NCBI GenBank assembly: GCA_964016885.1
Contig: OZ024744.1
Span: 45,632,001 to 45,696,000, forward strand
DNA: 64,000 bases
Source: Eledone cirrhosa
Taxonomy: Eukaryota
Direction of reading: 5' to 3'
Below, one piece after another: positions 1 through 57,017 of this stretch (the stretch's first letter is position 1; each line of letters opens with the position of its first letter). The position numbers and the translations under genes were made by a program. The notes beneath the pieces are model-generated. The model was not told the origin of the DNA and did no database searches. It worked only from the letters and a program-made list of their open reading frames with translations.

Positions 1-21
1 CGGCCGATTAACCCACTCGAT

Positions 22-29
22 ATGCAAAT
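22..29 (+). promoter_or_regulatory. Octamer motif ATGCAAAT (representative; present in most monomers)
   Basis: Exact match to the POU/Oct octamer about 100 nt upstream of the predicted cleavage site. Function not shown. Confidence 0.4.
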
Positions 30-70
30 TGGGCTACTCAGCCGTTACTATGCATAAGGTAATTATATAA

Positions 71-157
71 GTTCAACAATCTGGCAGGAAGGTATACGTT
101 GCTGACGATAGCTAATAAGCTTGAAACTAGTACAGCGTTCCTTTGTCAGTGTTGAAC
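71..157 (+). ncRNA. Type I hammerhead ribozyme (first representative; the motif recurs once per monomer)
   Basis: Stem I ACGTTG(96-101)/CAGCGT(133-138), extended by AAGG/CCTT, CTGGCA/TGTCAG and GTTCAACA(71-78)/TGTTGAAC(150-157). Core CTGACGA(102-108). Stem II AGCT-AATA-AGCT(110-121) with a U.U first pair. GAAA(123-126). Palindromic stem III ACTAGT(126-131). Predicted cleavage after A132 (GUA). Confidence 0.92.
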
Positions 158-250
158 AAATGATGCAACGATGGTTGTTGGATACTACGTCTTAATACGG
201 GATGTTTGTTTACAAACACACCGAGCATGATAATAAATGTTCGGTGAATC

Positions 251-342
251 CATACGTACATATATATATGTGTGCATGTATGTATATATATATACATACT
301 ACTGTACGTCTGTATACTTATATGTATGTACGTGTACATACT
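251..342. repeat. Internal alternating purine-pyrimidine microsatellite-like tract of the monomer (representative)
   Basis: (TA)n/(TATG)n/(TG)n mixture including the perfect palindrome GTATGTATATATATATACATAC (278-299). Changes in TA number explain most monomer length variation. Confidence 0.9.
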
Positions 343-3300
343 TATATTTAAGTAACAGCCGTACTAAGAGTGGTAAATGAAATTTCTTTCATTTTTTTCC
401 TTTATCGTTTTCGGTGCACCCGGCCGATTAACCCACTCGATACGCAAATATGGGCTACTCAGCCGTTACTATGCATAAGGTAAGTATATACGTTCAACAA
501 TCTGGCAGAACGGTATTCGTTGCTGACGATAGCTAATAAGCTTGAAACTAGTACAGCGTTTCTTTGTCAGTGATGAACAAACGAGCAACGATAGTTGTTG
601 GACACTACGGCTTAATACGGGATGTTTGTTTACAAACACACCGAGCATTATAATATATGTTCGGTGAATCCATACGTACATATATATATATGTGCATGTA
701 TGTATATATATATAAATACTACTGTACGTCTGTTTACATATATGTATGTACGCGTACATACTTATATTTAAGTAACAGCCGTACTAAGAGTGAGAAATAA
801 AATTTCGTTTCATTTTTTCCGTTTATCGATTTCGGTGCACCCGGCCGATTAACCCACTCGATATGCAAATTGGGCTACTCAGCTGTTAATATGCATAAGG
901 TAAGTATATAAGTTCAACAATCTGGCAGGAAGGTATACGTTGCTGACGATAGCTAATAAGTTTGAAACTAGTACAGCGTTCCTTTGTCAGTGTTGAACAA
1001 ATGATGCAACGATGGTTCCTGGACACTACGGCTTAATACGGGATGTTTGTTTACAAACACACCGAGCATTATAATAATGTTCGGTAAATCCATACGTACA
1101 TATATATATGTGTGCATGTACGTATATACATATATACATACTACTGTACGTCTATATACATATATGTATGTACGCGTACATACGTATATTTAAGTAACAG
1201 CCGTACTAAGAGTGGGAAATGGAATTTCGTTTCATTTTTTCCGTTTATCGTTTTCGGTGCACCCGGCCGATTAACCCACTCGATATGCAAATTGGGTTAC
1301 TCAGCCGTTAATATGCATGTGGTAAGTATATACGTTCAACAATCTGGCAGGAAGGTATACGTTGCTGACGATAGCTAATAAGCTTGAAACTAGTACAGCG
1401 TTCCTTTGTTAGTGTTGAACAAATGATGCAACGATGGTTACTGGATACTACGGCTTAATACGGGATGTTTGTTTACAAACACACCGAGCATTATAATAAA
1501 TGTTCGGTGAATCCATACGTACATATATATATGTGTGCATGTATGTATATATATATACATACTACTGTACGTCTGTATACTTATATGTATGTACGTGTAC
1601 ATACTTATATTTAAGTAACAGCTGTACTAAGAGGGCAAATGAAATTTCGTTTCATTTTTTCTGTTTCTCATTTTCGTTGCACCCGGCCGATTAACCCACT
1701 TGATATGCAAATATGTGCTACTCAACCGTTAATATACATAAGGTAAGTATATACGTTCAACAATCTGGCAGGAAGGTATACGTTGCTGACGATAGCTAAT
1801 AAGCTTGAAACTAATACAGCGTTCCTTTGTCAGTGTTGAACAAACGAGCAACGATAGTTGCTGGACACTACGGCTTAATACGGGATGTTTGTTTACTAAC
1901 ACACCGAGAATTATAATAGATGTTCGGTGAATCCATACGTATATATATATATATGTGCATGTATGTATATATATATACATACTACTGTACGTCTGTATCC
2001 ATATATGTATGTACGTGTACATACTTATATTTAAGTAACAGCCGTACTAAGAGTTTGAAATGAAATTTCGTTTCATTTTTTCCGTTTATCGTTTTCGGTG
2101 CACCCGGCCGATTAACCCACTCGATATGCAAATTGGGCTACTCAGCCGTTACTATTCATAAGGTAAGTATATAAGTTCAACAATCTGGCAGGAAGGTTAC
2201 GTTGTTGACGATAGCTAATAAGCTTGAAACTAGTACAGCGTTCCTTTGTCAGTGTTGAACAAATGATGCAACGATGGTTACTGGATACTACGGCTTAATA
2301 CGGGATGTTTGTTTACAAACACACCGAGCATTATAATAAATGTTCGGTGAATCCATACGTACATATATATATGTGTGCATGTATGTATATATATATACAT
2401 ACTACTGTACGTCTGTATACTTATATGTATGTACGTGTACATACTTATATTTAAGTAACAGCTGTACTAAGAGGGCAAATGAAATTTCGTTTCATTTTTT
2501 CTGTTTCTCATTTTCGTTGCACCCGGCCGTTAACCCACTTGATATGCAAATATGTGCTACTCAACCGTTAATATACATAAGGTAAGTATATACGTTCAAC
2601 AATCTGGCAGGAAGGTATACGTTGCTGACGATAGCTAATAAGCTTGAAACTAGTACAGCGTTCCTTTGTCAGTGTTGAACAAACGAGCAACGATTGTTGC
2701 TGGACACTACGGCTTAATTCAGGATGTTTGTTTACAAACACACCGAGCATTATAATAAATGTTCGGTGAATCCATACTTACATATATATATACGTGTGTG
2801 CATGTATGTATATATATATACATACTACTGTACGTCTGTATCCATATATGTATGTACGTGTACATACTTATATTTAAGTAACAGCCGTACTAAGAGTTTG
2901 AAATGAAATTTCGTTTCATTTTTTCCGTTTATCGTTTTCGGTGCACCCGGCCGATTAACCCACTCGATATGCAAATTGGGCTACTCAGCCGTTACTATGC
3001 ATAAGGTAAGTATATAAGTTCAACAATCTGGCAGGAAGGTATACGTTGCTGACGATAGCTAATAAGCTTGAAAATATTACAGCGTTCCTTTGTCAGTATT
3101 GAACAAATGATGCAACGATGGTTACTGGATACTACGGCTTAATACGGGATGTTTGTTTACAAACACACCTAGCATTATAATAAATGTTCGGTGAATCCAT
3201 ACGTACATATATATATGTGTGCATGTATGTATATATACATACATACTACTGTACGTCTATATACATATATGTATGTACGCGTACATACTTATATTTAAGT

Positions 3301-6300
3301 AACAGCCGTACTAAGAGTGAGAAATAAAATTTCGTGTCATTTTTTCCGTTTATCGTTTTCGGTGCACCCAGTCGATTAACCCACTCGATATGCAAATTGG
3401 GCTACTCAGCCGTTAATATGCATAAGGTAAGTATATACGTTCAACAATCTGGCAGGAAGGTATACGTTGCTGACGATAGCTAATAAGCTTGAAACTAGTA
3501 CAGCGTTTCTTTGTCAGTGTTGAACAAACGCGCAACGATGCTTGCTGGACACTACGGCTTAATACGGGATGTTTGTTTACAAACACACCGAGCATTATAA
3601 TAAATGTTCGGTGAATCCATACGTACGCATATATATCTGTGCATGTATGTATATATATATATATACAAGTAACTGTACGTCTGTATACATATATGTATGT
3701 ACGTGTACATACTTATATTTAAGTAACAGCCGTACTAAGAGTGGGAAATGAAATTTCGTTTCATTTTTTCCGTTTATCGTTTTCGGTGCACCCGGCCAAT
3801 TAACCCACTCGATATGCAAGTTGGGCTACTCAGCCGTTACTATGCATAAGGTAAGTATATACGTTCAACAATCTGGCAGGAAGGTATACGTTGCTGACGA
3901 TAGCTAATAAGCTTGAAACTAGTACAGCGTTCCTTTGTCAGTGTTGAACAAACGAGCAACGATGGTTGCTGGACACTACGGCTTAATACAGGATGTTTGT
4001 TTACAAACACACCGAGCATTATAATAAATGTTCGGTGAATCCATACTTACATATATATATATGTGTGTGCATGTATGTATATATATATACATACTACTGT
4101 ACGTCTGTATACATATATGTATGTACGCGTACATACTTATATTTAAGTAACAGCCGTACCAAGAGTTTGAAATGAAATTTCGTTTCATTTTTTCCGTTTA
4201 TCGTTTTCGGTGCACCCGGCCGATTAACTCACTCGATATGCAAATTGGGCTACTCAGCCGTTACTATGCATAAGGTAAGTATATAACTTCAACAATCTGG
4301 CAGGAAGGTATACGTTGCTGACGATAGCTAATAAGTTTGAAACTAGTACAGCGTTCCTTTGTCAGTGTTGAACAAACAATGCAACGATGGTTCCTGGACA
4401 CTACGGCTTAATACGGGATGTTTGTTTACAAACACACCGAGCATTATAATAAATGGTCGGTGAATCCATACGTATATATATATATATGTGCATGTATGTA
4501 TATATATATACATACTGCTGTACGTCTGTATCCATATATGAATGTACGTGTACATTCTTATATTTAAGTAACAGCCGTACTAAGAGTTTGAAATGAAAAT
4601 TCGTTTCATTTTTTCCGTTTATCGTTTTCGGTGCACCCGGCCGATTAACCCACTCGATATGAAAATTGGGCTACTCAGCCGTTAATATGCATAAGGTAAG
4701 TATATACGTTCAACAATCTGGCAGGAAGGTATACGTTGCTGACGATAACTAATAAGCTTGAAACTATTACAGCGTTCCTTTGTCAGTATTGAACAAATGA
4801 TGCAACGATGGTTACTGGATACTACGGCTTAATACGGGATGTTTGTTTACAAACACACCGAGCATTATAATAAATGTTCGGTGAATCCATACGTACATAT
4901 ATATATGTGTGCATGTATGTATATATACATACATACAACTGTAAGTCTGTATACATATATGTATGTACGTGTACATTCTTATATTTAAGTAACAGCTGTA
5001 CTAAGAGTGAGAAATGAAATTTCGTGTCATTTTTTCCGTTTATCGTTTTCGGTGCACCCAGTCGATTAACCCACTCGATATGCAAATTGGGCTACTCAGG
5101 CGTTAATATGAATAAGGTAAGTATAAACGTTCAACAATCTGGCAGGAAGGTATAGGTTGCTGACGATAGCTAATAAGCTTGAAACTAGTACGTCGTTTCT
5201 TTGTCAGTGTTGAACAAACGCGCAACGATGCTTGCTGGACACTACGGCTAAATACGGGATGTTTGTTTACAAACACACCGAGCATTATAATAAATGTCCG
5301 GTGAATCCATACGTACATATATATATGTGTGCATGTATGTATATATATATACATACTACTGTACGTCTGTATACTTATATGTATGTACGTATACATACTT
5401 ATATTTAAGTAACAGCCGTACTAATTGTGGGAAATGAAATTTCGTTTCATTTTTTCAGTTTATCGTTTTCGGTGCACTCGGCCGATTAACCCTTTCTATA
5501 TGCAAATTGGGCTACTCAGCCGTTACTATGCATAAGGTAAGTATATAAGTTCAATAATCTGGCAGGAAAGTATACGTTGCTGACGATAGCTAATAAGCTT
5601 GATACTATTACAGCGTTCCTTTGTCAGTATTGAACAAATGATGCAAAGATGGTTACTGGATACTACGGCTTAATACGGGATGTTTGTTTACAAACACACC
5701 TAGCATTATAATAAATGTTCGGTGAATCCATACGTACATATATATATGTGTGCATGTATGTATATATACATACATACTACTGTACGTCTGTATACATATA
5801 TGTATGTACGCGTACATACTTATATTTAAGTAACAGCCGTACTAAGAGTGAGAAATGAAATTTCGTGTCATTTTTTCCGTTTATCGTTTTCGGTGCACCC
5901 AGTCGATTAACCCACTCGATATGCAAATTGGGCTACTCAGCCGTTAATATGCATAAGGTAAGTATATACGTTCAACAATCTGGCAGGAAGGTATACGTTG
6001 CTGACGATAGCTAATAAGCTTGAAACTAGTACAGCGTTTCTTTGTCAGTGTTGAACAAACGCGCAACGACGCTTGCTGGACACTACGGCTTAATACGGGA
6101 TGTTTGTTTACAAACACACCCAGCATTATAATAAATGTTCGGTGAATTCATACGTACTTATATATATGTGTGCATGTATGTATATATATATACATACTAC
6201 TGTACGTCTGTATACTTATATGTATGTACGTGTACATACTTATATTTAAGTAACAGCTGTACTAAGAGGGCAAATGAAATTTCGTTTCATTTTTTCTGTT

Positions 6301-9300
6301 TCTCATTTTCGTTGCACCCGGCCGATTAACCCACTTGATATGTAAATATGTGCTACTCAACCGTTAATATACATAAGGTAAGTATATACGTTCAACAATC
6401 TGGCAGGAAGGTATACGTTGCTGACGATAGCTAATAAGCTTGAAACTAGAACAGCGTTCCTTTGTCAGTGTTGAACAAACGAGCAACGATAGTTGCTGGA
6501 CACTACGGCTTAATACGGGATGTTTGTTTACTAACACACCGAGAATTATAATAAATGTTCGGTGAATCCATACGTATATATATATATATGTGCATGTATA
6601 TATATATATATACATACTACTGTACGTCTGTATCCATATATGTATGTACGTGTACATTCTTATATTTAAGTAACAGCCGTACTAAGAGTTTGAAATGAAA
6701 TTTCGTTTCATTTTTTCCGTTTATCGTTTTCGGTGCACCCGGCCGATTAACCCACTCGATATGCAAATTGGGCTACTCAGCCGTTACTATGCATAAGGTA
6801 AGTATATAAGTTCAACAATCTGGCAGGAAGGTATACGTTGCTGACGATAGCTAATAAGCTTGAAACTAGTACAGCGTTCCTTTGTCAGTGTTGAACAAAC
6901 AAGCAACGATGGTTGCTGGACACTACGGCTTAATACAGGATGTTTGTTTACAAACACACCGAGCATTATAATTAATGTTCGGTGAATCCATACCTACATA
7001 TATATATATGTGCATGTATGTATATATATATACATACTACTGTACATCTGTATACATATATGTATGTACGTGTACATACTTATATTTAAGTAACAGCCGT
7101 ACTAAGAGTGAGAAATGAAATTTCGTTACATTCTTTCCGTTTATCGTTTCCGGTGCACCCGGCTGACTAACCCACTCGATATGCAAATTGGGCTACTCAG
7201 CCGTTAATATGCATAAGGTAAGTATATAAGTTCAACAATCTGGCATGAACGTATACGTTGCTGACGATAGCTAATAAGCTTGAAACTATTACAGCGTTCC
7301 TTTGTCAGTATTGAACAAATGATGCAACGATGGTTACTGGATACTACGGCTTAATACGGGATGTTTGTTTACAAACACACCGAGCATTATAATAAATGTT
7401 CGGTGAATCCATACGTACATATATATATGTGTGCATGTATGTATATATACATACATACTACTGTACGTCTGTATACTTATATGTATGTACGTGTACATAC
7501 TTATATTTAAGTAACAGCCGTACTAAGAGTGAGAAATGAAATTTCATGTCATTTTTTCCGTTTATCGTTTTCGGTGCACCCAGTCGATTAACCCACTCGA
7601 TATGCAAATTGGGCTACTCAGCCGTTAATATGAATAAGGTAAGTATATACGTTCAACAATCTGGCAGGAAGGTATACGTTGCTGACGATAGCTAATAAGC
7701 TTGAAACTAGTACAGCGTTAATTTGTTAGTGATGAACAAACGAGCAACAATGGTTGCTAGACACTACGGCTTAATAGGGGATGTTTGTTTACAAACACAC
7801 CGAGCATTATTATAAATGTTCGGTGAATCCATACGTACATATATATATATGTGTGTGCATTTATGTATATATATATACATACTACTGTACGTCTGTATAC
7901 ATATATGTATGTACGTGTACATTCTTATATTTAAGTAATAGCGGTACTAAGAGTTTGAAATGAAATTTCGTTTCATTTTTTCCGTTAATCGTTTTCGGTG
8001 CACCCGGCCGATTAACCCACTCGATATGCAAATTGGGCTACTCAGCCGTTACTATGCATAAGGTAAGTACATAAGTTCAACAATCTGGCAGGAAGGTTAC
8101 GTTGCTGACGATAGCTAATAAGCTTGAAACTAGTACAGCGTTCCTTTGTCAGTGTTGAAGAAATGATGCAACGATGGTTACTGGATACTACGGCTTAATA
8201 CGGGATGTTTGTTTACAAACACACCGAACATTATAATAAATGTTCGGTGAATCCATACGTACATATATATATGTGTGCATGTATGTATATATATATACAT
8301 ACTACTGTACGTCTGTATACTTATATGTATGTACGTGTACATACTTATATTTAAGTAACAACTGTACTAAGAGGGCAAATGAAATTTCGTTTCATTTTTT
8401 CTGTTTATCGATTACGGTGCACCCGTCCGATTAACCCACTCTATACGCAAATATGGGCTACTCAGCCGTTAATATGTATAAGGTAAGTATATACGTTCTA
8501 CAATCTGGCAGGAAGGTATACGTTGCTGACGATAGCTAATAAGCTTGAAACTAGTACAGCGTTCCTTTGTCAGTGTTGATCAAACGAACAAAGATGGATG
8601 CTGGACACCACGGCTTAATAAGGGATGTTTGTTTACAAACACACCGAGCATTATAATAAATGTTCGGTGAATCCATACGTACATATATATATATATGGGT
8701 GCATGTATGTATATATATATATATACTACTGTACGTCTGTATACATATATGTATGTACGTGTACATACTTATATTTAAGTAACAGCCGTACTAAGAGTGA
8801 GAAATGAAATTTCGTTTCATTTTTTCCGTTTATCGTTTTCGGTGCACCCGGCCGATTAACCAACTCGATATGCAAATTGGATTACTCAGTCGTTCATATG
8901 CATAAGGAAGGTATATAAGTTCAACAATCTGGCAGGAAGGTATACGTTGCTCACGTTAGCTAATAAGCTTGAAACTAGTACAGCGTTCCTTTGTCAGTGT
9001 TGAACAATCGAGCAAAGATGGATGCTGGACACTACCACTTAATACGGGATGTTTGTTTACAAACACATCGAGCATTTTAATAATGTTCGGTGAATCCATA
9101 CGTACATATATATATATGTGTGCATGTATGTATATATATATACATACTACTGTACGTCTGTATACATATATGTATGTACGTGTACATTCTTATATTTAAG
9201 TAATAGCGGTACTAAGAGTTTGAAATGAAATTTCGTTTCATTTTTTCCGTTAATCGTTTTCGGTGCACCCGGCCGATTAACCCACTCGATATGCAAATTG

Positions 9301-12300
9301 GGTTACTCAGCCGTTACTATGCATAAGGTAAGTATATAAGTTCAACAATCTGGCAGGAAGGTATACGTTGCTGACGATAGCTAATAAGTTTGAAACTAGT
9401 ACAACGTTCCTTTGTCAGTGTTGAACAAACGAGCAAAGATGGATGGTGGACACTACGACTTAATACGGGATGTTTGTTTACAAACACATCGAGCATTTTA
9501 ATAATGTTCGGTGATTCCATACGTATATATATATATATGTGCATGTATGTATATATATATAAATACTACTGTACGTCTGTATACATATAGGTATGTACGT
9601 GTACATACTTATATTTAAGTAACAGCCGTACTAAGAGTGGGAAATGAAATTTCGTTTCATTTTTCCGTTTATCGTTTTTGGTGCAGCCGGCCGATTAACC
9701 CACTCGATATGCAATTTGGGTTACTCAGTCGTTAATATGCATAAGGTAAGTATATACGTTCAACAATCTGGCAGGAAGGTATACGTTGCTGACGATAGCT
9801 AGTAAGCTTGAAACTAGTACAGCGTTCCTTTGTCAGTGTTGAACAAACGAGCAACGATGGTTGCTGGGCACTACGGCTTAATACAGGATGTTTGTTTACA
9901 AACACACCGAGCATTATAATAAATGTTCGGTGAATCCATATTTACATATATATATATGTGTGTGCATGTATGTATATATATATACATACTACTGTACGTC
10001 TGTATACATATATGTATGTACGTGTACATACTTATATTTAAGTAACAGCCGTACTAAGAGTGAGAAATGAAACTTCGTTTCATTTTTTCCGTTTATCGTT
10101 TTCGGTGCACCCCGCCGATTAACCCACTCGATATGCAAAGTGGATTACTCAGTCGTTCATATGCATAAGGTAAGTATATAAGTTCAACAATCTGGCAGGA
10201 AGGTATACGTTGCTCACGATAGCTAATAAGCTTGAAACTAGTACAGCGTTCCTTTGTCAGTGTTGAACAATCGAGCAAAGATGGATGCTGGACACTACGA
10301 CTTAATACGGGATGTTTGTTTACAAACACATCGAGCATTTTAATAATGTTCGGTGAATCCATACGTACATATATATATATATGTGTGCATGTATGTATAT
10401 ATATATACATACTACTGTACATCTGTATACATATATGTATGTACGTGTACATACTTATATTTAAGTAACAGCCGTACTAAGAGTGAGAAATGAAATTTCG
10501 TTACATTTTTTCCGTTTATCGTTTTCGGTGCACCCGGCTGACTAACCCACTCGATATGCAAATAGGGCTACTCAGCCGTTACTATGCATAAGGTAAGTAT
10601 ATAAGTTCAACAATCTGGCATGAAGGTATACGTTGCTGACGATAGCTAATAAGCTTGAAACTATTACAGCGTTCCTTTGTCAGTATTGAACAAATGATGC
10701 AACGATGGTTACTGGATACTACGGCTTAATACGGGATGTTTGTTTACAAACACACCGAGCATTATAATAAATGTTCGGTGAATCCATACGTACATATATA
10801 TATGTGTGTGCATGTATGTATATATATATACATACTACTGTACATCTGTATACATATATGTATGTACGCGTACATACTTATATTTAAGTAACAGCCGTAC
10901 TAAGAGTGAGAAATGAAATTTCATGTCATTTTTTCCGTTTATCGTTTTCGGTGCACCCAGTCGATTAACCCACTCGATATGCAAATTGGGCTACTCAGCC
11001 GTTAATATGAATAAGGTAAGTATATACGTTCAACAATCTGGCAGGAAGGTATACGTTGCTGACGATAGCTAATAAGCTTGAAACTAGTACAGCGTTAATT
11101 TGTTAGTGCTGAACAAACGAGCAACAATGGTTGCTAGACACTACGGCTTAATACGGGATGTTTGTTTACAAACACACCGAGCACTATTATAAATGTTCGG
11201 TGAATCCATACGTACATATATATATATGTGTGTGCATTTATGTATATATATATACATACTACTGTACGTCTGTATACATATATGTATGTACGTGTACATT
11301 CTTATATTTAAGTAATAGCGGTACTAAGAGTTTGAAATGAAATTTCGTTTCATTTTTTCCGTTTATCGTTTTCGGTGCACCCGGCCGATTAACCCACTCG
11401 ATATGCAAATTGGGCTACTCAACCGTTACTATGCATAAGGTAAGTATATAAGTTCAACAATCTGGCAGGAAGGTTACGTTGCTGACGATAGCTAATAAGC
11501 TTGAAACTAGTACAGCGTTCCTTTGTCATTGTTGAAGAAATGATGCAACGATGGTTACTGGATACTACGGCTTAATACGGGATGTTTGTTTACAAACACA
11601 CCGAGCATTATAATAAATGTTCGGTGAATCCATACGTACATATATATATGTGTGCATGTATGTATATATATATACATACTACTGTACGTCTGTATACTTA
11701 TATGTATGTACGTGTACATACTTATATTTAAGTAACAGCTGTACTAAGAGGGCAAATGAAATTTCGTTTCATTTTTTCTGTTTATCGATTTCGGTGCACC
11801 CGTCCGATTAACCCACTCTATACGCAAATATGGGCTACTCAGCCGTTAATATGTATAAGGTAAGTATATACGTTCAACAATCTGGCAGGAAGGTATACGT
11901 TGCTGACGATAGCTAATAAGCTTGAAACTAGTACAGCGTTCCTTTGTCAGTGTTGAACAAAGGAACAAAGATGGATGCTGGACACCACGGCTTAATAAGG
12001 GATGTTTGTTTACAAACACACCGAGCATTATAATAAATGTTCGGTGAATCCATACGTACATATATATATATATGGGTGCATGTATGTATATATATATACA
12101 TACTACTGTACGTCTGTATACATATATGTATGTACGTGTACATACTTATATTTAAGTAACAGCCGTACTAAGAGTGAGAAATGAAACTTCGTTTCATTTT
12201 TTCCGTTTATCGTTTTCGGTGCACCCGGCCGATTAACCCACTCGATATGCAAAGTGGATTACTCAGTCGTTCATATGCATAAGGTAAGTATATAAGTTCA

Positions 12301-15300
12301 ACAATCTGGCAGGAAGGTATACGTTGCTCACGATAGCTAATAAGCTTGAAACTAGTACAGCGTTCCTTTGTCAGTGTTGAACAATCGAGCAAAGATGGAT
12401 GCTGTACACTACGACTTAATACGGGATGTTTGTTTACAAACACATCGAGCATTTTAATAATGTTCGGTGAATCCATACGTACATATATATATATATGTGT
12501 GCATGTATGTATATATATATAAATACTACTGTACATCTGTATACATATATGTATGTACGTGTACATACTTATATTTAAGTAACAGCCGTACTAAGAGTGA
12601 GAAATGAAATTTCGTTACATTTTTTCCGTTTATCGTTTACGGTGCACCCGGCCGACTAAGCCACTCGATATGCAAATAGGGCTACTCAGCCGTTACTATG
12701 CATAAGGTAAGTATATAAGTTCAACAATCTGGCATGAAGGTATACGTTGCTGACGATAGCTAATAAGCTTGAAACTATTACAGCGTTCCTTTGTCAGTAT
12801 TGAACAAATGATGCAACGATGGTTACTGGATACTACGGCTTAATACGGGATGTTTGTTTACAAACACACCGAGCATTATAATAAATGTTCGGTGAATCCA
12901 TACGTACATATATATATGTGTATATATATGTGTGTGCATGTATGTATATATATATACATACTACTGTACATCTGTATACATATATGTATGTACGTGTACA
13001 TACTTATATTTAAGTAACAGCCGTACTAAGAGTGAGAAATGAAATTTCGTTACATTTTTTCCGTTTATCGTTTACGGTGCACCCGGCCGACTAAGCCACT
13101 CGATATGTAAATTGGGCTACTCAGCCGTTAATATGAATAAGGTAAGTATATACGTTCAACAATCTGGCAGGAAGGTATACGTTGCTGACGATAGCTAATA
13201 AGTTTGAAACTAGTACAGCGTTCCTTTGTCAGTGTTGAACAAATAATGCAACGATAGTTCCTGGACACTACGGCTTAATACGGGATGTTTGTTTACAAAC
13301 ACACCGAGCATTATAATAAATGGTCGGTGAATCCATACGTATATATATATATATATGTGCATGTATGTATATATATATACATACTACTGTACATCTGTAT
13401 ACATATATGTATGTACGCGTACATACTTATATTTAAGTAACAGCCGTACTAAGAGTGAGAAATGAAATTTCATGTCATTTTTTCCGTTTATCGTTTTCGG
13501 TGCACCCAGTCGATTAACCCACTCGATATGCAAATTGGGCTACTCAGCCGTTAATATGAATAAGGTAAGTATATACGTTCAACAATCTGGCAGGAAGGTA
13601 TACGTTGCTGACGATAGCTAATAAGCTTGAAACTAGTACAGCGTCAATTTGTTAGTGCTGAACAAACGAGCAACAATGGTTGCTAGACACTACGGCTTAA
13701 TACGGGATGTTTGTTTACAAACACACCGAGCACTATTATAAATGTTCGGTGAATCCATACGTACATATATATATATGTGTGTGCATTTATGTATATATAT
13801 ATACATACTACTGTACGTCTGTATACATATATGTATGTACGTGTACATTCTTATATTTAAGTAATAGCGGTACTAAGAGTTTGAAATGAAATTTCGTTTC
13901 ATTTTTTCCGTTTATCGTTTTCGGTGCACCCGGCCGATTAACCCACTCGATATGCAAATTGGGCTACTCAGCCGTTACTATGCATAAGGTAAGTATATAA
14001 GTTCAACAATCTGGCAGGAAGGTTACGTTGCTGACGATAGCTAATAAGCTTGAAACTAGTACAGCGTTCCTTTGTCAGTGTTGAAGAAATGATGCAACGA
14101 TGGTTACTGGATACTACGGCTTAATACGGGATGTTTGTTTACAAACACACCGAGCATTATAATGAATGTTCGGTGAATCCATACGTACATATATATATGT
14201 GTGCATGTATGTATATATATATACATACTACTGTACGTCTGTATACTTATATGTATGTACGTGTACATACTTATATTTAAGTAACAGCTGTACTAAGAGG
14301 GCAAATGAAATTTCGTTTCATTTTTTCTGTTTATCGATTTCGGTGCACCCGTCCGATTAACCCACTCTATACGCAAATATGGGCTACTCAGCCGTTAATA
14401 TGTATAAGGTAAGTATATACGTTCAACAATCTGGCAGGAAGGTATACGTTGCTGACGATAGCTAATAAGTTTGAAACTAGTACAGCGTTCCTTTGTCAGT
14501 GTTGAACAAACGAGCAAAGATGGATGCTGGACACTACGACTTAATACGGGATGTTTGTCTACAAACACATCGAGCATTTTAATAATGTTCGGTGATTCCA
14601 TACGTACATATATATATATATGTGTGCATGTATGTATATATATATACATACTACTGTACATCTGTATACATATATGTATGTACGTGTACGTAATTATATT
14701 TAAGTAACAGCGGTACTAAGAGTGAGAAATGAAATTTCGTTACATTTTTCCGTTTATCGTTTCCGGTGCACCCGGCCGACTAACCCACTCGATATGCAAA
14801 TTGGGCTACTCAGCCGTTACTATGCATAAGGTAAGTATATACGTTCAACAATCTGGCAGGAAGGTATACGTTGCTGACGATAGCTAGTAAGCTTGAAACT
14901 AGTACAGCGTTCCTTTGTCAGTGTTGAACAAACGAGCAACGATGGTTGCTGGACACTACGGCTTAATACAGGATGTTTGTTTACAAACACACCGAGCATT
15001 ATAATAAATGTTCGGTGAATCCATACTTACATATATATATATGTGTGTGCATGTATGTATATTTATATACATACTACTGTACGTCTGTATACATATATGT
15101 ATGTACGCGTACATACTTATATTTAAGTAACAGCCGTACTAAGAGTCTGAAATGAAATTTCGTTTCATTTTTTCCGTTTATCCTTTTCGGTGCACCCGGC
15201 CGATTAACCCACTCGATATGCAAATTGGGCTACTCAGCCGTTACTATGCATAAGGTAAGTATATAAGTTCAACAATCTGGCAGGAAGGTTACGTTGCTGA

Positions 15301-18300
15301 CGATAGCTAATAAGCTTGAAACTAGTACAGCGTTCCTTTGTCAGTGTTGAACAAATGATGCAACGATGGTTACTGGATACTACGTCTTAATACGGGATGT
15401 TTGTTTACAAACACACCGAGCATTATAATAAATGTTCGGTGAATCCATACGTACATATATATATATGTGTGCATGTATGTATATATATATACATACTACT
15501 GTACGTCTGTATATTTATATGTATGTACGTGTACATACTTATATTTAAGTAACAGCCGTACTAAGAGTTTGAAATGAAATTTCGTTTCATTTTTTCCGTT
15601 TATCATTTTCGGTGCACCCGGCCGATTAACCCACTCGATATGCAAATTGGGCTACTAAGCCGTTACGATGCATAAGGTAAGTATATACGTTCAACAATCT
15701 GGCAGGAAGGTATACGTTGCTGACGATAGCTAATAAGTTTGAAACTAGTACAGCGTTCCTTTGTCAGTGTCGAACAAATAATGCAACGATGGTTCCTGGA
15801 CACTACGGCTTAATACGGGATGTTTGTTTACAAACACACCGAGCATTATAATATATGGTCGGTGAATCCATACGTATATATATATATATGTGCATGTATA
15901 TATATATACATACTACTGTACGTCTGTATACATATATGTATGTACGTGTACATTCTTATATTTAAGTAACAGCCGTACTAAGAGTTTGAAATGAAATTTC
16001 GTTTCATTTTTTCCGTTTATCGTTTTCGGTGCACCCGGCCGATATACCCACTCGATATGCAAATTGGACTACTCAGCCGTTACTATGCATAAGGTAAGTA
16101 TATAAGTTCAATAATCTGGCAGGAAAGTATACGTTGCTGACGATAGCTAATAAGCTTGAAACTAGTACAGCGTTCCTTTGTCAGTGTTGAACAAACGAGC
16201 AACGATGGTTGCTGGACACTACGGCTTAATACAGGATGTTTGTTTACAAACACACCGAGCATTATAATAAATGTTCGGTGAATCCATACGTACATATATA
16301 TGTGTGCATGTATGTATATATATATATACATACTACTGTACGTCTGTATACTTATATGTATGTACGTGTACATACTTATATTTTTAGTAACAGTCGTACT
16401 AAGAGTGGGAAATGAAACTTCGTTTCATTTTTTCCGTTTCTCATTTTCGTTGCACCCGGCCGATTAACCCACTCTATATGCATATATGTGCTACTCAGCC
16501 GTTACTATGCATGAGGTAAGTATATAAGTTCAACAATCTGGCAGGAAGGTATACGTTGCTGACGATAGCTAATAAGCTTGAAACTAGTACAGCGTTCCTG
16601 TGTCAGTGTTGAACAAACGAGCAACGATGGTTGCTGGACACTACGGCTTAATACAGGATGTTTGTTTACAAACACACCGAGCATTATAATAAATATTCGG
16701 TGAATCCATACTTACATATATATATATATGTGTGTGCATGTATGTATATATATATACATACTGCTGTACGTCTGTATACATATATGTATGTACGCGTACA
16801 TACTTATATTTAAGTAACAGCCGTACTAAGAGTTTGAAATGAAATTTCGTTTCATTTTTTCCGTTTATCGTTTTCGGTGCACCCGGCCGATTAACCCACT
16901 CGATACGCAAATATGGGCTACTCAGCCGTTAATATGCATAAGGTAAGTATATAAGTTCAACAATCTGGCAGGAAGGTTACGTTGCTGACGATAGCTAATA
17001 AGCTTGAAACTAGTACAACGTTCCTTTGTCAGTGTTGAACAAATGATGCAACGATGGTTACTGGATACTACGTCTTAATACGAGATGTTTGTTTACAAAC
17101 ACACCGAGCATTATAATAAATGTTCGGTGAATCCATACGTACATATATATATATGTGTGCATGTATGTATATATATATACATACTACTGTACGTCTGTAT
17201 ACTTATATGTATGTACGTGTACATACTTATATTTAAGTAACAGCCGTACTAAGAGTTTGAAAAGAAATTTCGTTTCATTTTTTCCGTTTTTCGTTTTCGG
17301 TGCACCCGGCCGATTAACCCACTCGATATGCAAATTGGGCTACTCAGCCGTTACGATGCATAAGGTAAGTATATACGTTCAACAATCTGGCGGGAGGGTA
17401 TACGTTGCTGACGATAGCTAATAAGCTTGAAACTATTACAGCGTTCCTTTGTCAGTGATGAACAAACGAGCAACGATAGTTGTTGGACACTACGGCTTAA
17501 TACGGGATGTTTGTTTACAAACACACCGAGCATTATAATATATGTTCGGTGAATCCATACGTACATATATATATATATGTGTGCATGTATGTATATATAT
17601 ATACATACTGCTGTACGTCTGTATACATATATGTATTTACGTGTGCATACTTCTATTTAAGTGACAGCCGTACTAAGAGTGGGAAATGAAATTTCGTTTC
17701 ATTTTTTCCGTTTATCGATTTCGGTGCACCCGACCGATTAACCCACTCGATACGCAAATATGGGCTACTCAGCCGTTAATATACATAAGGTAAGTATATA
17801 CGTTCAACAATCTGGCAGGAAGGTATACGTTGCTGACGATAGCTAATAAGTTTGAAACTAGTACAGCGTTCCTTTGTCAGTGTTGAACAAATAATGCAAC
17901 GATGGTTCCTGGACACTACGGCTTAATACGGGATGTTTGTTTACAAACACACCGAGCATTATAATAAATGGTCGGTGAATCCATACGTATATATATATAT
18001 ATGTGCATGTATGTATATATATATACATACTACTGTACGTCTGTATCCATAAATGTATGTACGTGTACATTCTTATATTTAAGTAACAGCCGTACTAAGA
18101 GTTTGAAATGAAATTTCGTTTCATTTTTTCCGTTTATCGTTTTCGGTGCACCCGGCCGATTAACCCACTCGATATGCAAATTGGGCTACTCAGCCGTTAC
18201 TATGCATAAGGTAAGTTTATAAGTTCAATAATCTGGCAGGAAAGTATACGTTGCTGACGATAGCTAATAAGATTGAAACAAGTACAGCGTTCCTTTGTCA

Positions 18301-21300
18301 GTGTTGAACAAACGAGCAACGATGGTTGCTGGACACTACGGCTTAATACAGGATGTTTGTTTACAAACACACCGAGCATTATAATAAATGTTCGGTGAAT
18401 CCATACGTACATATATATATATATGTGCATGTATGTATATATATATAAATACTACTGTACGTCTGTATACATATATCTATGTACGTGTACATACTTATAT
18501 TTAAGTAACAGCCGTACTAAGAGTGAGAAATGAAATTTCGTGTCATTTTTTCCGTTTATCGTTTTCGGTGCACCCAGTCGATTAACCCACTCGATATGCA
18601 AATTGGGCTACTCAGCCGTTAATATGAATAAGGTAAGTATATACGTTCAACAATCTGGCAGGAAGGTATACGTTGCTGACGATAGCTAATAAGCTTGAAA
18701 CTAGTACAGCGTTTCTTTGTCAGTGTTGAACAAACGCGCAACGATGCTTGCTGGACACTACGGCTTAATACGGGATGTTTGTTTACAAACACACCGAGCA
18801 TTATAATAAATGTTCGGTGAATCCATACGTACATATATATATGTGTGCATGTATGTATATATATATACATACTACTGTACGTCTGTATACTTATATGTAT
18901 GTACGTATACATACTTATATTTAAGTAACAGCAGTACTAAGAGTGGGAAATGAAATTTCGTTTCATTTTTTCAGTTTATCGTTTTCGGTGCACCCGGCCG
19001 ATTAACCCTTTCTATATGCAAATTGGGCTACTCAGCCGTTACTATGCATAAGGTAAGTATATACGTTCAACAATCTGGCAGGAAGGTATACGTTGCTGAC
19101 GATAGCTAATAAGCTTGAAACTAGTACAGCGTTTCTTTGTTAGTGATGAACAAACGAGCAACGATGGTTGCTAGACACTACGGCTTACTACTGGATGTTT
19201 GTTTACAAACACACCGAGCATTATTATAAATGTTCGGTGAATCCATACGTACATATATATAAGTGTGCATGTATCTATATATATACATACTACTGTACGT
19301 CTGTATACTTATATGTATGTACGTGTACATACTTATATTTAAGTAACAGCCGTACTAAGAGTGGGAAATGAAATTTCGTTTCATTTTTTCCGTTTATCGT
19401 TTTCGGTGCACCCGGCCGATTAACCCACTCGATATGCAAATTGGGCTACTCAGCCGTTACTATGCATAAGGTAAGTATATACGTTCAACAATCTGGCAGG
19501 AAGGTATACGTTGCTGACGATAGCTAATAAGCTTGAAACTATTACAGCGTTCCTTTGTCAGTATTGAACAAATGATGCAACGATGATTACTGGATACTAC
19601 GGCTTAATACGGGATGTTTGTTTACAAACACACCGAGCATTATAATAAATGTTCGGTGAATCCATACGTACATATATATATATGTGTGCATGTATGTATA
19701 TATATATACATACTACTGTACGTCTGTATACTTATATGTATGTACGTGTACATACTTATATTTAAGTAACAGCTGTACTAAGAGGGCAAATGAAATTTCG
19801 TTTCATTTTTTCTGTTTCTCATTATCGTTGCACCCGGCCGATTAACCCACTCGATATGCAAATATGTGCTACTCAACCGTTAATATACATAAGGTAAGTA
19901 TATACGTTCAACAATCTGGCAGAAAGGTATACGTTGCTGACGATAGCTAATAAGCTTGAAACTAGTACAGCGTTCCTTTGTCAGTGTTGAACAAATGATG
20001 CAACGATGGTTACTGGATACTACGGCTTAATACGGGATGTTTGTTTACAAACACACCGAGCATTATAATAAATGTTCGGTGAATCCATACGTACATATAT
20101 ATATGTGTGCATGTATGTATATACATATATACATACTACTGTACGTCTGTATACATATATGTATGTACGTGTACATACTTATATTTAAGTAACAGCCGTA
20201 CTAAGAGTTTCAAATGAAATTTCGTTTCATTTTTTCCGTTTATCGTTTTCGGTGCACCCGGCCGATTAACCCTTTCTATATGCAAATTGGGCTACTCAGC
20301 CGTTACTATGCATAAGGTAAGTATATACGTTCAACAATCTGGCAGGAAGGTATACGTTGCTGACGATGGCTAATAAGCTTGAAACTAGTACAGCGTTTCT
20401 TTGTTAGTGATGAACAAACGAGCAACGATGGTTGCTAGACACTACGGCTTAATACGGGATGTTTGTTTACAAACACACCGAGCATTATTATAAATGTTCG
20501 GTGAATCCATACGTACATATATATAAGTGTGCATGTATGTATATATATATACATACTACTGAACGTCTGTATACTTATATGTATGTACGTGTACATACTT
20601 ATATTTAAGTAACAGCCGTACTAAGAGTGGGAAATAAAATTTCGTTTAATTTTTTCCGTTTATCGATTTCGATGCACCCGGCCGATTAACCCACTCGATA
20701 CGCAAATATGGGCTACTCAGCCGTTAATATACATAAAGTAAGTATATACGTTCAACAATCTGGCAGGAAGGTATACGTTGCTGTCGATAGCTAATAAGTT
20801 TGAAAGTAGTACAGCGTTCCTTTGTCAGTGTTGAACAAACGCGCAACGATGCTAGCTGGACACTACGGCTTAATACGGGATGTTTGTTTACAAACACACC
20901 GAGCATTATAATAAATGTTCGGTGAATCCATACGTACATATATATATGTGTGCATGTATGTATATACATATATACATACTACTGTACGTCTGTATACATA
21001 TATGTATGTACGCGTACATACTTATATTTAAGTAACAGCCGTACTAAGAGTGAGAAATGAAATTTCGTGTCATTTTTTCCGTTTATCGTTTTCGGTGCAC
21101 CCAGTCGATTAACCCACTCGATATGCAAATTGGGCTACTCAGCCGTTAATATGAATAAGGTAAGTATATACGTTCAACAATCTGGCAGGAAGGTATACGT
21201 TGCTGACGATAGCTAATAAGCTTGAAACTAGTACAGCGCTTCTTTGTCAGTGTTGAACAAACGCGCAACGATGCTTGCTAGACACTACGGCTTAATACGG

Positions 21301-24300
21301 GATGTTTGTTTACAAACACACCGAGCATTATAATAAATATTCGGGGAATCCATACGTACATATATATGTGTGCATGTATGTATATATATATACATACTAC
21401 TTTACGTCTGTATACTTATATGTATGTACGTATACATACTTATATTTAAGTAACAGCCGTACTAAGAGTGGGAAATGAAATTTCGTTTCATTTTTTCAGT
21501 TTATCGTTTTCGGTGCACCCGGCCGATTAACCCTTTCTATATGCAAATTGGGCTACTCAGCCGTTACTATTCATAAGGTAAGTATATACGGTCACCAATC
21601 TGGCAGGAAGGTATACGTTGCTGACGATAGCTAATAAGCTTGAAACTAGTACAGCGTTTCTTTGTTAGTGATGAACAAACGATCAAAGATGGTTGCTAGA
21701 CACTACTGCTTAATACGGGATGTTTGTTTACAAACACACCGAGCATTATTATAAATGTTCGGTGAATCCATACGTACATATATATATGTGTGCATGTATG
21801 TATATATATATATACATACTACTGTACGTCTGTATACTTATATGTATGTACGTGTACATACTTATATTTAAGTAACAGCCGTACTAAGAGTGGGAAATGA
21901 AACTTCGTTTCATTTTTTCCGTTTCTCATTTTCGTTGCACCCGGCCGATTAACCCACTCGATATGCATATATGTGCTACTCATTCGTTAATATGAATAAG
22001 GTAAGTATATACGTTCAACAATCTGGCAGGAAGGTATTCGTTGCTGACGATAGCTAATAAGCTTGAAACCAGTACAGCGTTTCTTTGTCAGTGATGAACA
22101 AACGAGCAACGATAGTTGTTGGACACTACGGCTTAATACGGGATGTTTGTTTACAAACACGCCGAGCATTATAATATATGTTCGGTGAATCCATACGTAC
22201 ATATATATATATGTGTGTGCATGTATGTATATATATATACATAATACTGTACGTCTGTATACATATATGTATGTACGCGTACATACTTATATTTAAGTAA
22301 CAGCCGTACTAAGAGTGGGAAATAAAATTTCGTTTCATTTTTTCCGTTTATCGATTTCGATGCACCCGGCCGATTAACCCACTCGATACGCAAATATGGG
22401 CTACGCAGCCGTTAATATACATAAGATAAGTATATACGTTCAACAATCTGGCAGGAAGGTATACGTTGCTGACGATAGCTAGTAAGTTCGAAACTAGTAC
22501 AGCGTTCCTTTGTCAGTGTTGAACAAATGATGCAACGATGGTTCCTGGACACTACGGCTTAATACGGGATGTTTGTTTACAAACACACCGAGCATTATAA
22601 TAAATGTTCGGTGAATCCATACGTACATATATATATGTGTGCATGTATGTATATACATATATACATACTACTGTACGTCTGTATACATATATGTATGTAC
22701 GCGTACATACTTATATTTAAGTAACAGCCGTACTAAGAGTGAGAAATGAAATTTCGTGTCATTTTTTCCGTTTATCGTTTTCGGTGCACCCAGTCGATTA
22801 ACCCACTCGATATGCAAATTGGGCTACTCAGCCGTTAATATGAATAAGGTAAGTATATACGTTCAACAATCTGGCAGGAAGGTATACGTTGCTGACGATA
22901 GCTAGTAAGTTCGAAACTAGTACAGCGTTCCTTTGTCAGTGTTGAACAAACGAGCAATGATGGTTGCTGGACACTACGGCTTAATACGGGATGTTTGTTT
23001 ACAAACACACCGAGCATTATTATATATGTTCGGTGAATCCATACGTACATATATACATATGTGTGTGCATTTATGTATATATATATAAATACTACTGTAC
23101 GTCTGTATACATATATGTATGTACGTGTACATACTTATATTTAAGTAAGAGCCGTACTAAGAGTGAGAAAGCCAATTTCGTTTCATTTTTTCCGTTTATC
23201 GTTTTCGGTGCACCCAGTCGATTAACCGACTCGATATGCAAATTGGGCTACTCAGCCGTTAATATGAATAAGGTAAGTATATACGTTCAACAATCTGGCA
23301 CGAAGGTATACGTTGCTGACGATAGCTAATAAGCTTGAAACTAGTACAGCGTTTCTTTGTCAGTGTTGAACAAACGCGCAACGATGCTTGCTGGACACTA
23401 CGGCTTAATACGGGATGTTTGTTTACAAACACACCGAGCATTATAATAAATATTCGGGGAATCCATACGTACATATATATATGTGTGCATGTATGTATAT
23501 ATAGATATACATACCACTGTACGTCTGTATACATATATGTATGTACGTGTACATACTTATATTTAAGTAACAGTCGTACTAAGAGTGGGAAATGAAATTT
23601 CGTTTCATTTTTTCAGTTTATCGTTTTCGGTGCACCCGGCCGATTAACCCTTTCTATATGCAAATTGGGCTACTCAGCCGTTACTATGCATAAGGTAAGT
23701 ATATACGTTCAACAATCTGGCAGGAAGGTATACGTTGCTGACGATAGCTAATAAGCTTGAAACTAGTACAGCGTTTCTTTGTTAGTGATGAACAAACGAG
23801 CAACGATGGTTGCTAGACACTACGGCTTAATACGGGATGTTTGTTTACAAACACACCGAGCATTATTATAAATGTTCGGTGAATCCATACGTACATATAT
23901 ATATGTGTGCATGTATGTATATATATATACATACTACTGAACGTCTGTATACTTATATGTATGTACGTGTACATACTTATATTTAAGTAACAGCCGTACT
24001 ACGAGTGGGAAATAAAATTTCGTTTCATTTTTTCCGTTTATCGATTTCGATGCACCCGGCCGATTAACCCACTCGATACGCAAATATGGGCTACTCAGCC
24101 GTTAATATACATAAGGTAAGTATATACGTTCAACAATCTGGCAGGAAGGTATACGTTGCTGTCGATAGCTAATAAGCTTGAAACTAGTACAGCGCTTCTT
24201 TGTCAGTGTTGAACAAACGCGCATCGATGCTTGCTGGACACTACGGCTTAATACGGGATGTTTGTTTACAAACACACCGAGCATTATAATAAATATTCGG

Positions 24301-54300: not shown

Positions 54301-57017
54301 ATGTGTGCATGTATGTATATATATATACATACAACTGTACGTCTGAATACATATATGTATGTACCTGTACATACTTATATTTAAGTAACAGCCGTACTAA
54401 GAGTGGGAAATGGAATTTCGTTTCATTTTTTCCGTTTATAGTTTTCGGTGCACCCGGCCGATTAACCCACTCGATATGCAAATTGGGCTATTCAGCCGTT
54501 AATATGCATAAGGTAAGTATATACGTTCAACAATCTGGCAGGAAGGTATACGTTGCTGGCCATAGCTAATAAGCTTGAAACTAGTACAGCGTTGCTTTGT
54601 CAGTGTTGAATAAACGAGCAACAATGGTTGCTGTACACTAAGGCTTAATACGGGATGTTCGTTTACAAACACAGTGAGCATTATAATAAATGTTCGGTGA
54701 ATCCATACGTACATATATATATATGTGTGCATGTATGTATATATATATACATACTAGTGTACGTCTGAATACATATATGTATGTACGTGTACATACTTAT
54801 ATTTAAGTAACTGCCGTACGAAGAGTGGGAAATGAAATTTCGTTTCAATTTTCCTGTTTATCGTTTTCCGTATACTCGTCCGATGAACCAACTCGATATG
54901 CAAATTGGGCTAATCAGGCATAATATGCATAAGGTAAGTATATACGTTCAACAATCTGGCAGGAAGGTATACGTTGCTGACGATAACTAATAAGCTTGAA
55001 ACTAGTACAGCGTTCCTTTGTCAGTGTTGAACAAACGAGCAACGATGGTTTCTGGACACTACGGCTTAATACGGGATGTTTGTTTACAAACACAGTGAGC
55101 ATTATGATAAATGTTCGGTGAATCCATACATACATATATTTATGTGTGCATGTATGTATATATATATATACATACTACTGTACGTCTGTATATTTATATG
55201 TATGTACGTGTACATACTTATATTTAAGTAACGGCCGTACTAAGAGTGGCAAATGAAATTTCGTTTCATTTTTTCCATTTATCGTTTTCGTTGCACCCGA
55301 CCGATTAACCCACTCGATATGCAAATTGGGCTACTCAGCCGTTAATATGCATAAGGTAAGTATATACGTTCAACAATCTGGCAGGAAGGTATACGTTGCT
55401 GACGATAGCTAATAAGCTTGAAACTAGTACAGCGTTTCTTTGTCAGTGTTGAACCATCAAGCAACGATGGTTTCTGGACACTACGGCTTAATACGGGATG
55501 TTTGTTTACAAACACAGTGAGCAATATAATAACTGTTCGGTGAATCCATACGTACATATATATATGTGTGCATGTATGTATATATATATATACGTACTAC
55601 TGTACGTCTGTATACTTATATGTATGTACGTGTACATACTTATATGTAAGTAACAGCCGTACTAAGAGTGCGAAATGAAATTTCGTTTCATTTTTTCCGT
55701 TTATCGTTTTCGGTATACCCGTCCGATGAACCCACTCGATATGCAAATTGGGCTACTCAGCCGTTAATATGCATAAGGTAAGTATATATGTTCAACAATC
55801 TGGCAGGACTGTATACTTTGCTGACGATAGCTAATAAGCTTGAAACTAGTACAGCGTTTCTTTGTCAGTGTTGAACAAACGACCAACAATGGTTGCTGTA
55901 CACTACGGCTTAATACGGGATGTTTATTTACAAACACAGTGAGCAATATAATAAATGTTCGGTGAATCCATACGTACATATATATATGTGTGCATGTATG
56001 TATATATATATACATACTACTGTACGTCTGAATACATATATGTATGTACGTGTACATACTTATATTTAAGTAACAGCCGTACTAAGAGAGGGAAATGAAA
56101 TTTCGTTTCAATTTTTCCGTTTATCGTGCTCGGTATACTCGTCCGATTAACCCACTCGATATGCAAATTGGGCTACGTTCAAAAATCTGGCAGGAAGGTA
56201 TACGTTGCTGACGATAGCTAATAAGTTTGAAACTAGTACAGCGTTTCTTTGTCAGTGTTAAACCATCGAGCAACGATGGTTTCTGGACACTACGGCTTAA
56301 TACGGGATGTTTGTTTACAAACACACCGAGCATTATAATAAATGTTCGGTGAATCGATACGTACATATATATATGTGTGTGCATGTATGTATATATATAC
56401 ATACTACTGTACGTCTGTATACATATATGTATGTACGTGAACATTCTTATATTTAAGTAACAGCCGTAGTAAGAGTGGGAAATGAAATTTCGTTTCATTT
56501 TTTCCGTTTATCGTTTTCGGTGCACCCGGCCGACTAACCCACTCGATATGCAAATTGAGCTACTCAGCCGTTAATATGCATAAGGTAAGTATATATGTTC
56601 AACAATCTGGCAGGAAGGTATACGTTGCTGACGATAGCTAATAAGCTTGAAACTAGTACAGCGATCCTTTGTCAGTGTTGAACAAATGATGCAACGATGG
56701 TTACTGGACACTACGGCTTAATACGGGATGTTTGTTTACAAACCCACCGAGCATTATAATAAATGTTCGGTGAATCCATACGTACATATATATATGTGTG
56801 CATGTATGTATATATATATACATACTACTGTACGTCTGTATACATATATGTATGTACGCGTACATACTTTTATGTAAGTACCAGCAGTACTAAGAGTGGG
56901 AAATGAAATTTCGTTTCATTTTTTCCGTTTATCGTTTTCGGTGCACTCGGCCGATTAACCCACTCGATATGCAAATAGGGCTACTCAGCCGTTAATATGC
57001 ATAAGGTAAGTATATAC

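What the first reader, a model, noticed from the sequence alone, without database searches (positions are those of the whole stretch)
123..133. Palindromic two-base-pair stem III suggests cleavage as a double hammerhead between neighbouring monomers
Seen: stem III is A-C-UA-G-U (ACUAGU), too short to be stable alone but self-complementary. Established: newt satellite 2, ASBVd and Penelope-type minimal hammerheads with palindromic stem III cleave more efficiently as dimers. Inference: the tandem arrangement supplies partners in cis, so the array structure itself could be functional.
Basis: partly seen in the sequence, partly recalled or inferred. Interest (0 to 1): 0.75.

Follow-up and report, generated by a model that had tools for sequence, protein, structure and literature searches.

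The report
Paired hammerhead ribozymes in retrozyme array
Each 420-base unit of this tandem repeat carries a hammerhead RNA motif whose tiny third arm is a palindrome, so two neighbouring copies are predicted to pair and cut out one unit, a design already described for newt and axolotl repeats, and related families in this genome keep the palindrome while changing its letters.

Summary
Observation confirmed: ACUAGU (126-131) is helix III of a type I hammerhead present in every ~420-bp unit of a ~150-unit array. As a monomer it is really one pair plus a palindromic CUAG loop. Dimer cleavage is likely but untested. Related families in the genome switch among five palindromes (97.9% of 57,175 motif matches have TA, GC or AT loops). 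The double hammerhead is near the minimum-energy fold in 11 of 12 neighbour pairs, and a lone unit misfolds its core onto the palindrome. This is the published design of metazoan non-LTR retrozymes. 'The array itself is functional' is not supported: two units suffice, the array is an ageing copy with block duplications, and it shows no extra conservation of the palindrome. Dispersed copies bear Penelope-type marks (two fixed 3' ends, inverted arms, (AT)n targets), and an intact Hydra-like Penelope element is abundant. The scan has already reported this anatomy and the palindrome variety on other DNA of this genome. One small new lead: units with incompatible palindromes appear in alternation within insertions, as if trapped in dimer circles; counter-examples exist.

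The parts
1..57468 (+). Head-to-tail array of ~420-bp retrozyme units (136 anchors, one interval holds two units, last unit cut at about unit position 109); continues upstream for 13 more full units and begins with an inverted piece ending at unit position ~403
126..131 (+). Palindrome ACUAGU = helix III; 1 bp plus CUAG loop in a monomer, predicted 6-bp helix between two units
102..108 (+). Hammerhead core CUGACGA (C3-A9); in a lone unit CUG is predicted to mispair with UAG 128-130
109..122 (+). Stem II: U.U at its base (109/122), AGCU/AGCU, AAUA loop
   Evidence: U.U base also in axolotl HHR_Amex2
123..126 (+). Core GAAA (G12-A15.1)
132..133 (+). Predicted cleavage site after GUA (A17 = 132)
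   Evidence: position inferred from the hammerhead consensus; not shown experimentally
71..157 (+). Stem I (96-101/133-138), internal loop (about 93-95/139) and its long extension; must swap partners in the double hammerhead
351..405 (+). 55-nt Penelope-type 'tail' between the two fixed 3' ends (unit positions ~350 and ~405) of dispersed copies
22..29 (+). Octamer ATGCAAAT about 80 nt upstream of the core; found 87-100 nt upstream in 4 of 9 other loci printed; possible snRNA-type promoter element (untested)
   Evidence: 98 of 135 units intact
62849..63269 (-). 3' end of a Hydra-like Penelope element with its own U3-A8 hammerhead, ending at the short fixed end next to a microsatellite

Best explanation
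The unit is a non-coding retrozyme whose type I hammerhead has a one-pair, palindromic helix III, and two copies on one transcript likely pair their ACUAGU segments and swap stem I partners to form a double hammerhead that would cut both sites and release one 420-nt unit. Shown: motif, array, family-level covariation, insertion anatomy. Computed: a lone unit prefers an inactive fold (core CUG paired to UAG of the palindrome), whereas the double fold is near the energy minimum. Inferred: transcription, cleavage, ligation to a circle that is stable because it has no partner, and copying of that RNA by a Hydra-like Penelope reverse transcriptase into (AT)n, giving two-armed multi-unit insertions. 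This long array is most likely one such insertion later enlarged by DNA duplication and now decaying, not a structure kept for function.
For: Pattern counts: 55,968 of 57,175 matches have loops TA (40,031), GC (15,194) or AT (743); ATGCAT and AGTACT families also occur. In 11 hand-picked representatives helix III is 100% self-paired with both-side changes at 2 of 3 pairs; loop-pair covariation has no use in a monomer. Double fold within 0.2-2.9 kcal/mol of the minimum in 11 of 12 neighbour pairs, 13-17 better than two closed singles and 2-6 better than two open singles. Lone-unit misfold. Young insertions are identical units on both arms (L023, L051, L052); six units of L075 share 11 changes, 9 of them A-to-G on the hammerhead strand, as expected for copying of one edited RNA. 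7 of 7 contiguous two-armed loci with both ends readable (of 18 dispersed loci) have one end at ~350 and one at ~405; the Penelope element shows the same two-end rule in 5 of 5 two-armed loci chosen. Precedent: PMC4209133, PMC7229834.
Against: No cleavage or expression data. Nearest-neighbour energies ignore core and loop-loop contacts and Mg2+, and penalise lone pairs; for one 310-nt family pair (L052) the double fold was 11.6 kcal/mol above the minimum, and for the 466-nt family it tied with open singles. The local stem I rod forms first during transcription and must be displaced. Within the array the palindrome is not extra conserved. Self-incompatible loops were copied at template level in L074 (both arms), L092 (two identical adjacent units) and L068. 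The 11 representatives are related and hand-picked. A purified Penelope enzyme did not need its hammerhead to cut (PMC11167929 passage).
Confidence: 0.7

Rival explanations
1. Each unit cuts as a single extended hammerhead stabilised by stem I loop / loop II contacts; dimerisation only helps, or the palindrome is an optional relic.
For: The stem I internal loop (GUA.../UCC) and UAA-starting loop II are kept across four families with different stems. Newt monomers cleave using an internally looped helix I (PMC6155905 passage); coral and mussel retrozyme monomers cleave well; axolotl Amex2, with the same U.U base, gave 22% as a monomer. L074 and L092 carry self-incompatible loops.
Against: Does not explain TA/GC/AT covariation of the loop; closed singles cost 13-19 kcal/mol; both axolotl types cut much better as dimers.
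Confidence: 0.17
2. The hammerhead works as a dimer, but mostly in trans between separate RNA molecules, so tandem position is not needed.
For: Palindromic hammerheads occur in single-copy or one-per-arm insertions (L059-L065, several of L013-L030).
Against: A 6-bp A/U-rich duplex is weak (-4.8 kcal/mol); the abundant families are tandem; unit-length periodic arms need two cuts one unit apart, which one cis double hammerhead gives.
Confidence: 0.07
3. The ribozyme is dispensable; the array is ordinary satellite DNA grown from a Penelope-type insertion and copied from uncut read-through RNA.
For: Block duplications at lags 6-35 units and about 6.5% divergence between units; heterogeneous multi-unit insertions exist (L020, L022, L068, L069); hammerhead mutants did not impair a purified Penelope enzyme; 8 of 9 Xenopus retrozyme dimers were inactive in vitro.
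Against: Compensatory changes in stems I, II and III across families; the whole hammerhead is about half as diverged as background even in this array (P 0.004); identical multi-unit arms fit a cut-and-circularised template.
Confidence: 0.06

Closest known systems
Metazoan non-LTR retrozymes (Cervera and de la Pena 2020, PMC7229834: passages, sections 14 and 17 read; Li et al. bioRxiv 10.64898/2026.07.22.740005: parts 1-3 of 5 read)
   Same: Short tandem non-coding units, GC below 45%, one type I hammerhead per unit, highly self-paired predicted fold, co-occurrence with Penelope-like elements.
   Different: 420 nt is at or just above the 170-400 nt range quoted for invertebrates; insertion ends here carry explicit Penelope marks, which those papers only propose; expression and circles untested here.
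Newt satellite 2 and axolotl HHR_Amex1 / HHR_Amex2 (PMC7229834 passages; PMC6155905 passages; Forster et al. 1988 known only second-hand)
   Same: Amex1: one-pair helix III with palindromic tetraloop; Amex2: U.U at base of helix II; both cut better as dimers.
   Different: This motif combines both weak features and has a GUA site; no sequence comparison with them was made.
Minimal hammerheads of Penelope-like pseudo-LTRs (Cervera and de la Pena 2014, PMC4209133: parts 1-2 of 4 read)
   Same: Palindromic positions 15.2-16.2 and loop 3; proposed dimer action.
   Different: Those have long helix II, short helix I and no loop contacts; this one has the canonical 6-bp stem I and 4-bp stem II. The Penelope element of this genome has its own, different hammerhead with no detectable similarity to the unit.
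Hydra-clade Penelope-like elements (Craig et al. 2021, PMC8557442: passages and section 11 read)
   Same: The likely helper has RT plus C-terminal nuclease region with RWR, DKT, CxCX5C, CxxC and CxH motifs, (TA)n targets, inverted arms and a tail.
   Different: Tails are 55 nt (retrozyme) and about 80 nt (element) versus 30-40 nt in the paper; clade assigned by motifs only, no tree; Pfam gave no hit.

Membership tests
Type I hammerhead ribozyme | Core CUGANGA, GAAA, UH with three helices, stem I open | tested here: met
   helices covary across families. U.U replaces the usual 10.1-11.1 pair.
Type I hammerhead ribozyme | Match to an Rfam hammerhead model | tested here: not met
   no hit; the models do not cover this short-helix-III form well (inference)
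Type I hammerhead ribozyme | Self-cleavage at the predicted site | not testable with these tools
   needs in vitro transcription or RNA-end data
Dimer-type (double) hammerhead | 1-2 bp helix III with self-complementary loop | tested here: met
Dimer-type (double) hammerhead | Palindrome kept through sequence change | tested here: met
   five palindromes across families; copies are not independent
Dimer-type (double) hammerhead | Dimer cleaves faster than monomer, partner-dependent | not testable with these tools
   only energies and mixed natural-variant evidence
Non-LTR retrozyme | Tandem non-coding units of a few hundred bases, each with a type I hammerhead, GC <45% | tested here: met
   ORFs in the unit were not listed
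Non-LTR retrozyme | Dispersed copies showing retrotransposition | tested here: met
Non-LTR retrozyme | Expressed as linear and circular unit-length RNA | not testable with these tools
Penelope pseudo-LTR derivative | Sequence similarity of the unit to an autonomous element's terminal repeat | tested here: not met
   no similarity to the one intact family examined; other families not examined; one chimera joins the two (L024)

The most novel reading that the evidence does not exclude
Insertions are a fossil record of double-hammerhead cleavage in vivo: when neighbouring units carry incompatible palindromes the middle site is skipped, a dimer circle forms, and it is copied as a strictly alternating array (L058: ACAUGU/ACUAGU alternating over five units; L091: ACCUGU/ACUAGU/ACCUGU). 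The palindrome would thus set the size of the circle that is mobilised, and this genome's >57,000 motifs allow a genome-wide test.
Probability: 0.25. Interest if true: 0.6.

Novelty: new member of a known kind. Interest (0 to 1): 0.33.

Why it matters
The dimer design itself is known since the newt and viroid work and is described as the norm for animal type I hammerheads, so the finding adds a new, very abundant instance rather than a new mechanism. Its value is as test material: natural palindrome variants in very young insertions could show whether dimer cleavage governs retrozyme processing in living cells, which has been shown only in vitro in the papers read, and the same loci link retrozymes to Penelope enzymes.

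Tried and rejected
Rfam: nothing at gathering score; only AT-rich microRNA-like noise by E-value. Expression: no RNA holder listed; no reads were laid, so expression stays open. Within-array selection on the palindrome: none (P 0.42; CUAG P 0.55; 77 non-redundant units of 135). Wobble-compatible UG versus incompatible CA loops on contig C1: 18 versus 19 family hits counted by eye, no excess. L075 (six UG units) rejected as evidence for selection because its changes look like A-to-I editing. Period-2 pattern is not specific: L057 looks period-2 with normal palindromes; period-3 and period-6 cases (L093, L073, L072, L109) may be DNA duplications. ATTATT and ATAGTT motif groups had no stem I in my register and were left out of the alignment. 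First label 'Neptune-like' for the helper dropped after reading PMC8557442 section 11. Pfam found nothing on the helper protein. Primary papers on newt monomer cleavage and on Penelope dimers were not held; no supplements were read, and those of PMC4209133, PMC7229834 and PMC8557442 may already list these families.

Full report
Observation. Window 123-133 is GAAACTAGTAC, and ACUAGU (126-131) is self-complementary. It is helix III of a type I hammerhead: stem I 96-101/133-138, CUGACGA 102-108, a U.U at 109/122, stem II 110-113/118-121, GAAA 123-126, predicted cut after A132; stem I extends into a long rod. GUA sites occur in natural hammerheads (PMC1636495, start of abstract). The unit repeats with period 422 over 1-57,431; 136 anchors were found, one interval holding two units; 13 more full units lie upstream and the array starts with an inverted piece. 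Of 135 units examined (the last, truncated one dropped), 119 keep ACTAGT, 116 keep the core, and 77 of 134 neighbour pairs have both cores and a fully pairable helix III. A 2-nt hairpin loop is not sterically normal (own knowledge), so the monomer has one pair plus a CUAG loop, +6.0 kcal/mol; the six-pair duplex is -4.8. Rfam does not recognise it.

What it is. The genome is a 3.0-Gb animal assembly; the hammerhead region recurs on many contigs. Among 18 dispersed loci, copies are 5'-truncated, run into (AT)n and end at unit position ~350 or ~405; 7 are contiguous two-armed inversions with both outer ends readable and all 7 have one end of each kind; 7 are one-armed and 4 are gapped, chimeric or complex. 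Craig et al. describe 5' truncation, inverted arms, a tail at one end and (TA)n targets as Penelope features (PMC8557442 passages), and Frangieh et al. show that the tail lies between two reverse-transcription start sites (PMC11167929 passages). Locus L024 joins a Penelope 3' body to unit positions 1-350. That protein finds an abundant young family with intact 784-codon frames; its ORF has the Hydra-clade motifs, and its copies show the same two-end rule, about 80 nt apart, in 5 of 5 two-armed loci chosen. Its own hammerhead is different (U3-A8 core, five-pair helix III with a palindromic loop) and shows no similarity to the unit. Young retrozyme insertions consist of identical units on both arms, and L075 has six units sharing 9 A-to-G changes of 11 on the hammerhead strand. 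This fits copying of one RNA many times round. Earlier notes of the scan report this anatomy on other DNA of this genome; I had reached it independently before that look-up, except for the clade name and the editing idea.

The dimer question, for. The pattern CTGAYGA-N12-16-GAAAC-NN-GT-H has 57,175 matches against 140 for the control; NN is TA in 40,031, GC in 15,194 and AT in 743, together 97.9%. AA/AG/CA/CG give 505 and GG/GT/TG/TT 465; the first 100 of each are mostly scattered single mutants of the same families; five dinucleotides (237 matches by subtraction) were not listed. Families with ATGCAT and AGTACT also exist. In 11 hand-picked representatives helix III is fully self-paired with changes on both sides at two of three pairs, and stems I and II covary too. 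Pairing of the two loop bases is meaningless in a monomer, so this is the best evidence, though it rests on a handful of related families, not on thousands of events. In 12 of the 16 neighbour pairs with consensus hammerheads, the double fold lay within 0.2-2.9 kcal/mol of the minimum in 11 (8.7 in one), 13-17 below two closed singles and 2-6 below two open singles. A lone unit, linear or circular, pairs core CUG with UAG of the palindrome, an inactive fold. One double hammerhead cuts both sites, one unit apart, so it would excise exactly one monomer (inference from topology).

The dimer question, against. In other families the double fold was 1.8-4.2 above the minimum in four pairs, 0.0 in one 310-nt pair and 11.6 in another. 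The model lacks tertiary contacts. The stem I internal loop and loop II letters are kept across families, and newt monomers can cleave through such an extended stem I (PMC6155905 passages); coral and mussel monomers cleave well. Within this array the whole hammerhead is about half as diverged as composition-matched background (P 0.004) but the palindrome is not (P 0.42).

Natural variants. All 21 doubly changed loops in the TA-loop backbones and all 30 first-position changes in the GC-loop backbone were listed, and 40 loci picked from these and were read. Most variants are single units among normal ones. L058 alternates ACAUGU and ACUAGU units over five units, the two types differing at 7-8 sites; mixed pairs cost 12.6 versus 4.2 kcal/mol. 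L091 reads ACCUGU, ACUAGU, ACCUGU. Both fit a dimer circle made because the middle site lacked a partner. Against: L057 looks period-2 with normal palindromes; L092 has two identical adjacent units with a self-incompatible loop, L074 has one on both arms, L068 likewise; UG and CA loops are equally common on C1 (18 and 19 by eye). No run of three or more identical units with a self-incompatible loop was seen among the listed hits, but such runs are expected to be rare anyway. A word search of earlier findings for this idea returned none; paper searches were not aimed at it, so I do not claim it is absent from print.

Is the array functional? Two units suffice. Neighbouring units differ as much as random pairs (26 versus 27 differences) and near-identical blocks recur at lags of 6 to 43 units: an old insertion enlarged by DNA duplication. 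Arrays of up to 300 units are reported for retrozymes (bioRxiv 10.64898/2026.07.22.740005). It could still be transcribed and cut, which is untested.

Comparison. Cervera and de la Pena 2014 state that most metazoan type I hammerheads have a 1-2 bp helix III with a palindromic loop and work as dimers in tandem repeats; the 2020 paper shows this for axolotl retrozymes, one with a palindromic tetraloop and one with a U.U at the base of helix II; a review repeats the tandem-supplies-partner argument (PMC6765202 passages); cave-cricket satellites show similar conservation (PMC2837043 passages). Verdict: a real, likely dimer-type hammerhead in a new non-LTR retrozyme family; new member of a known kind; interest 0.33.

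Noticed in passing
window 62849-63269 (-); L031 1670-1780: 3' end of a very young, abundant Hydra-like Penelope element with a U3-A8 hammerhead, long stem II and five-pair helix III capped by a palindromic loop; intact 3,531-bp tandem units exist elsewhere.
   Followed up: partly
L024 3100-3554 and 4737-6900: Chimera of a Penelope 3' body with retrozyme positions 1-350, present twice in opposite orientation; suggests template switching by one enzyme.
   Followed up: partly
L058 (G000:C1:319,892,000-319,898,500), L091: Insertions whose units alternate between two helix III palindromes.
   Followed up: partly
L075 (G000:C2:78,933,000-78,939,000): Six units share nine A-to-G changes on the hammerhead strand, like A-to-I editing fixed by reverse transcription.
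   Followed up: partly
window 22-29 and 64-69; L055, L059, L061, L063: Octamer ATGCAAAT 80-100 nt upstream of the hammerhead in several families, a TATA-like stretch after it and a T6 run at unit 392-397; could be an snRNA-type promoter (recalled for newt satellite 2; search found no paper).
   Followed up: partly
window 96-138 across the array: The hammerhead as a whole is about half as diverged as the rest of the unit within this one array (P 0.004), unexpected for purely neutral decay; unexplained.
   Followed up: partly
window 252-340: Long (AT/GT)-rich hairpin inside the unit; its microsatellite length varies between units and gives spurious microRNA-family hits.
   Followed up: no
window 57955-58253 and 58610-58910: About 300-bp direct repeat, 655 bp apart, bounded by (AT)n.
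   Followed up: no
window about 58938-59070: Near-perfect fold-back of about 60-bp arms next to (AT)n, starting with the reverse complement of the Penelope short-end motif (read by eye).
   Followed up: no
L053, L056, L067: Another repeat family carries two opposed hammerhead-like cores a few bases apart on opposite strands, without stem I in the register tested.
   Followed up: no
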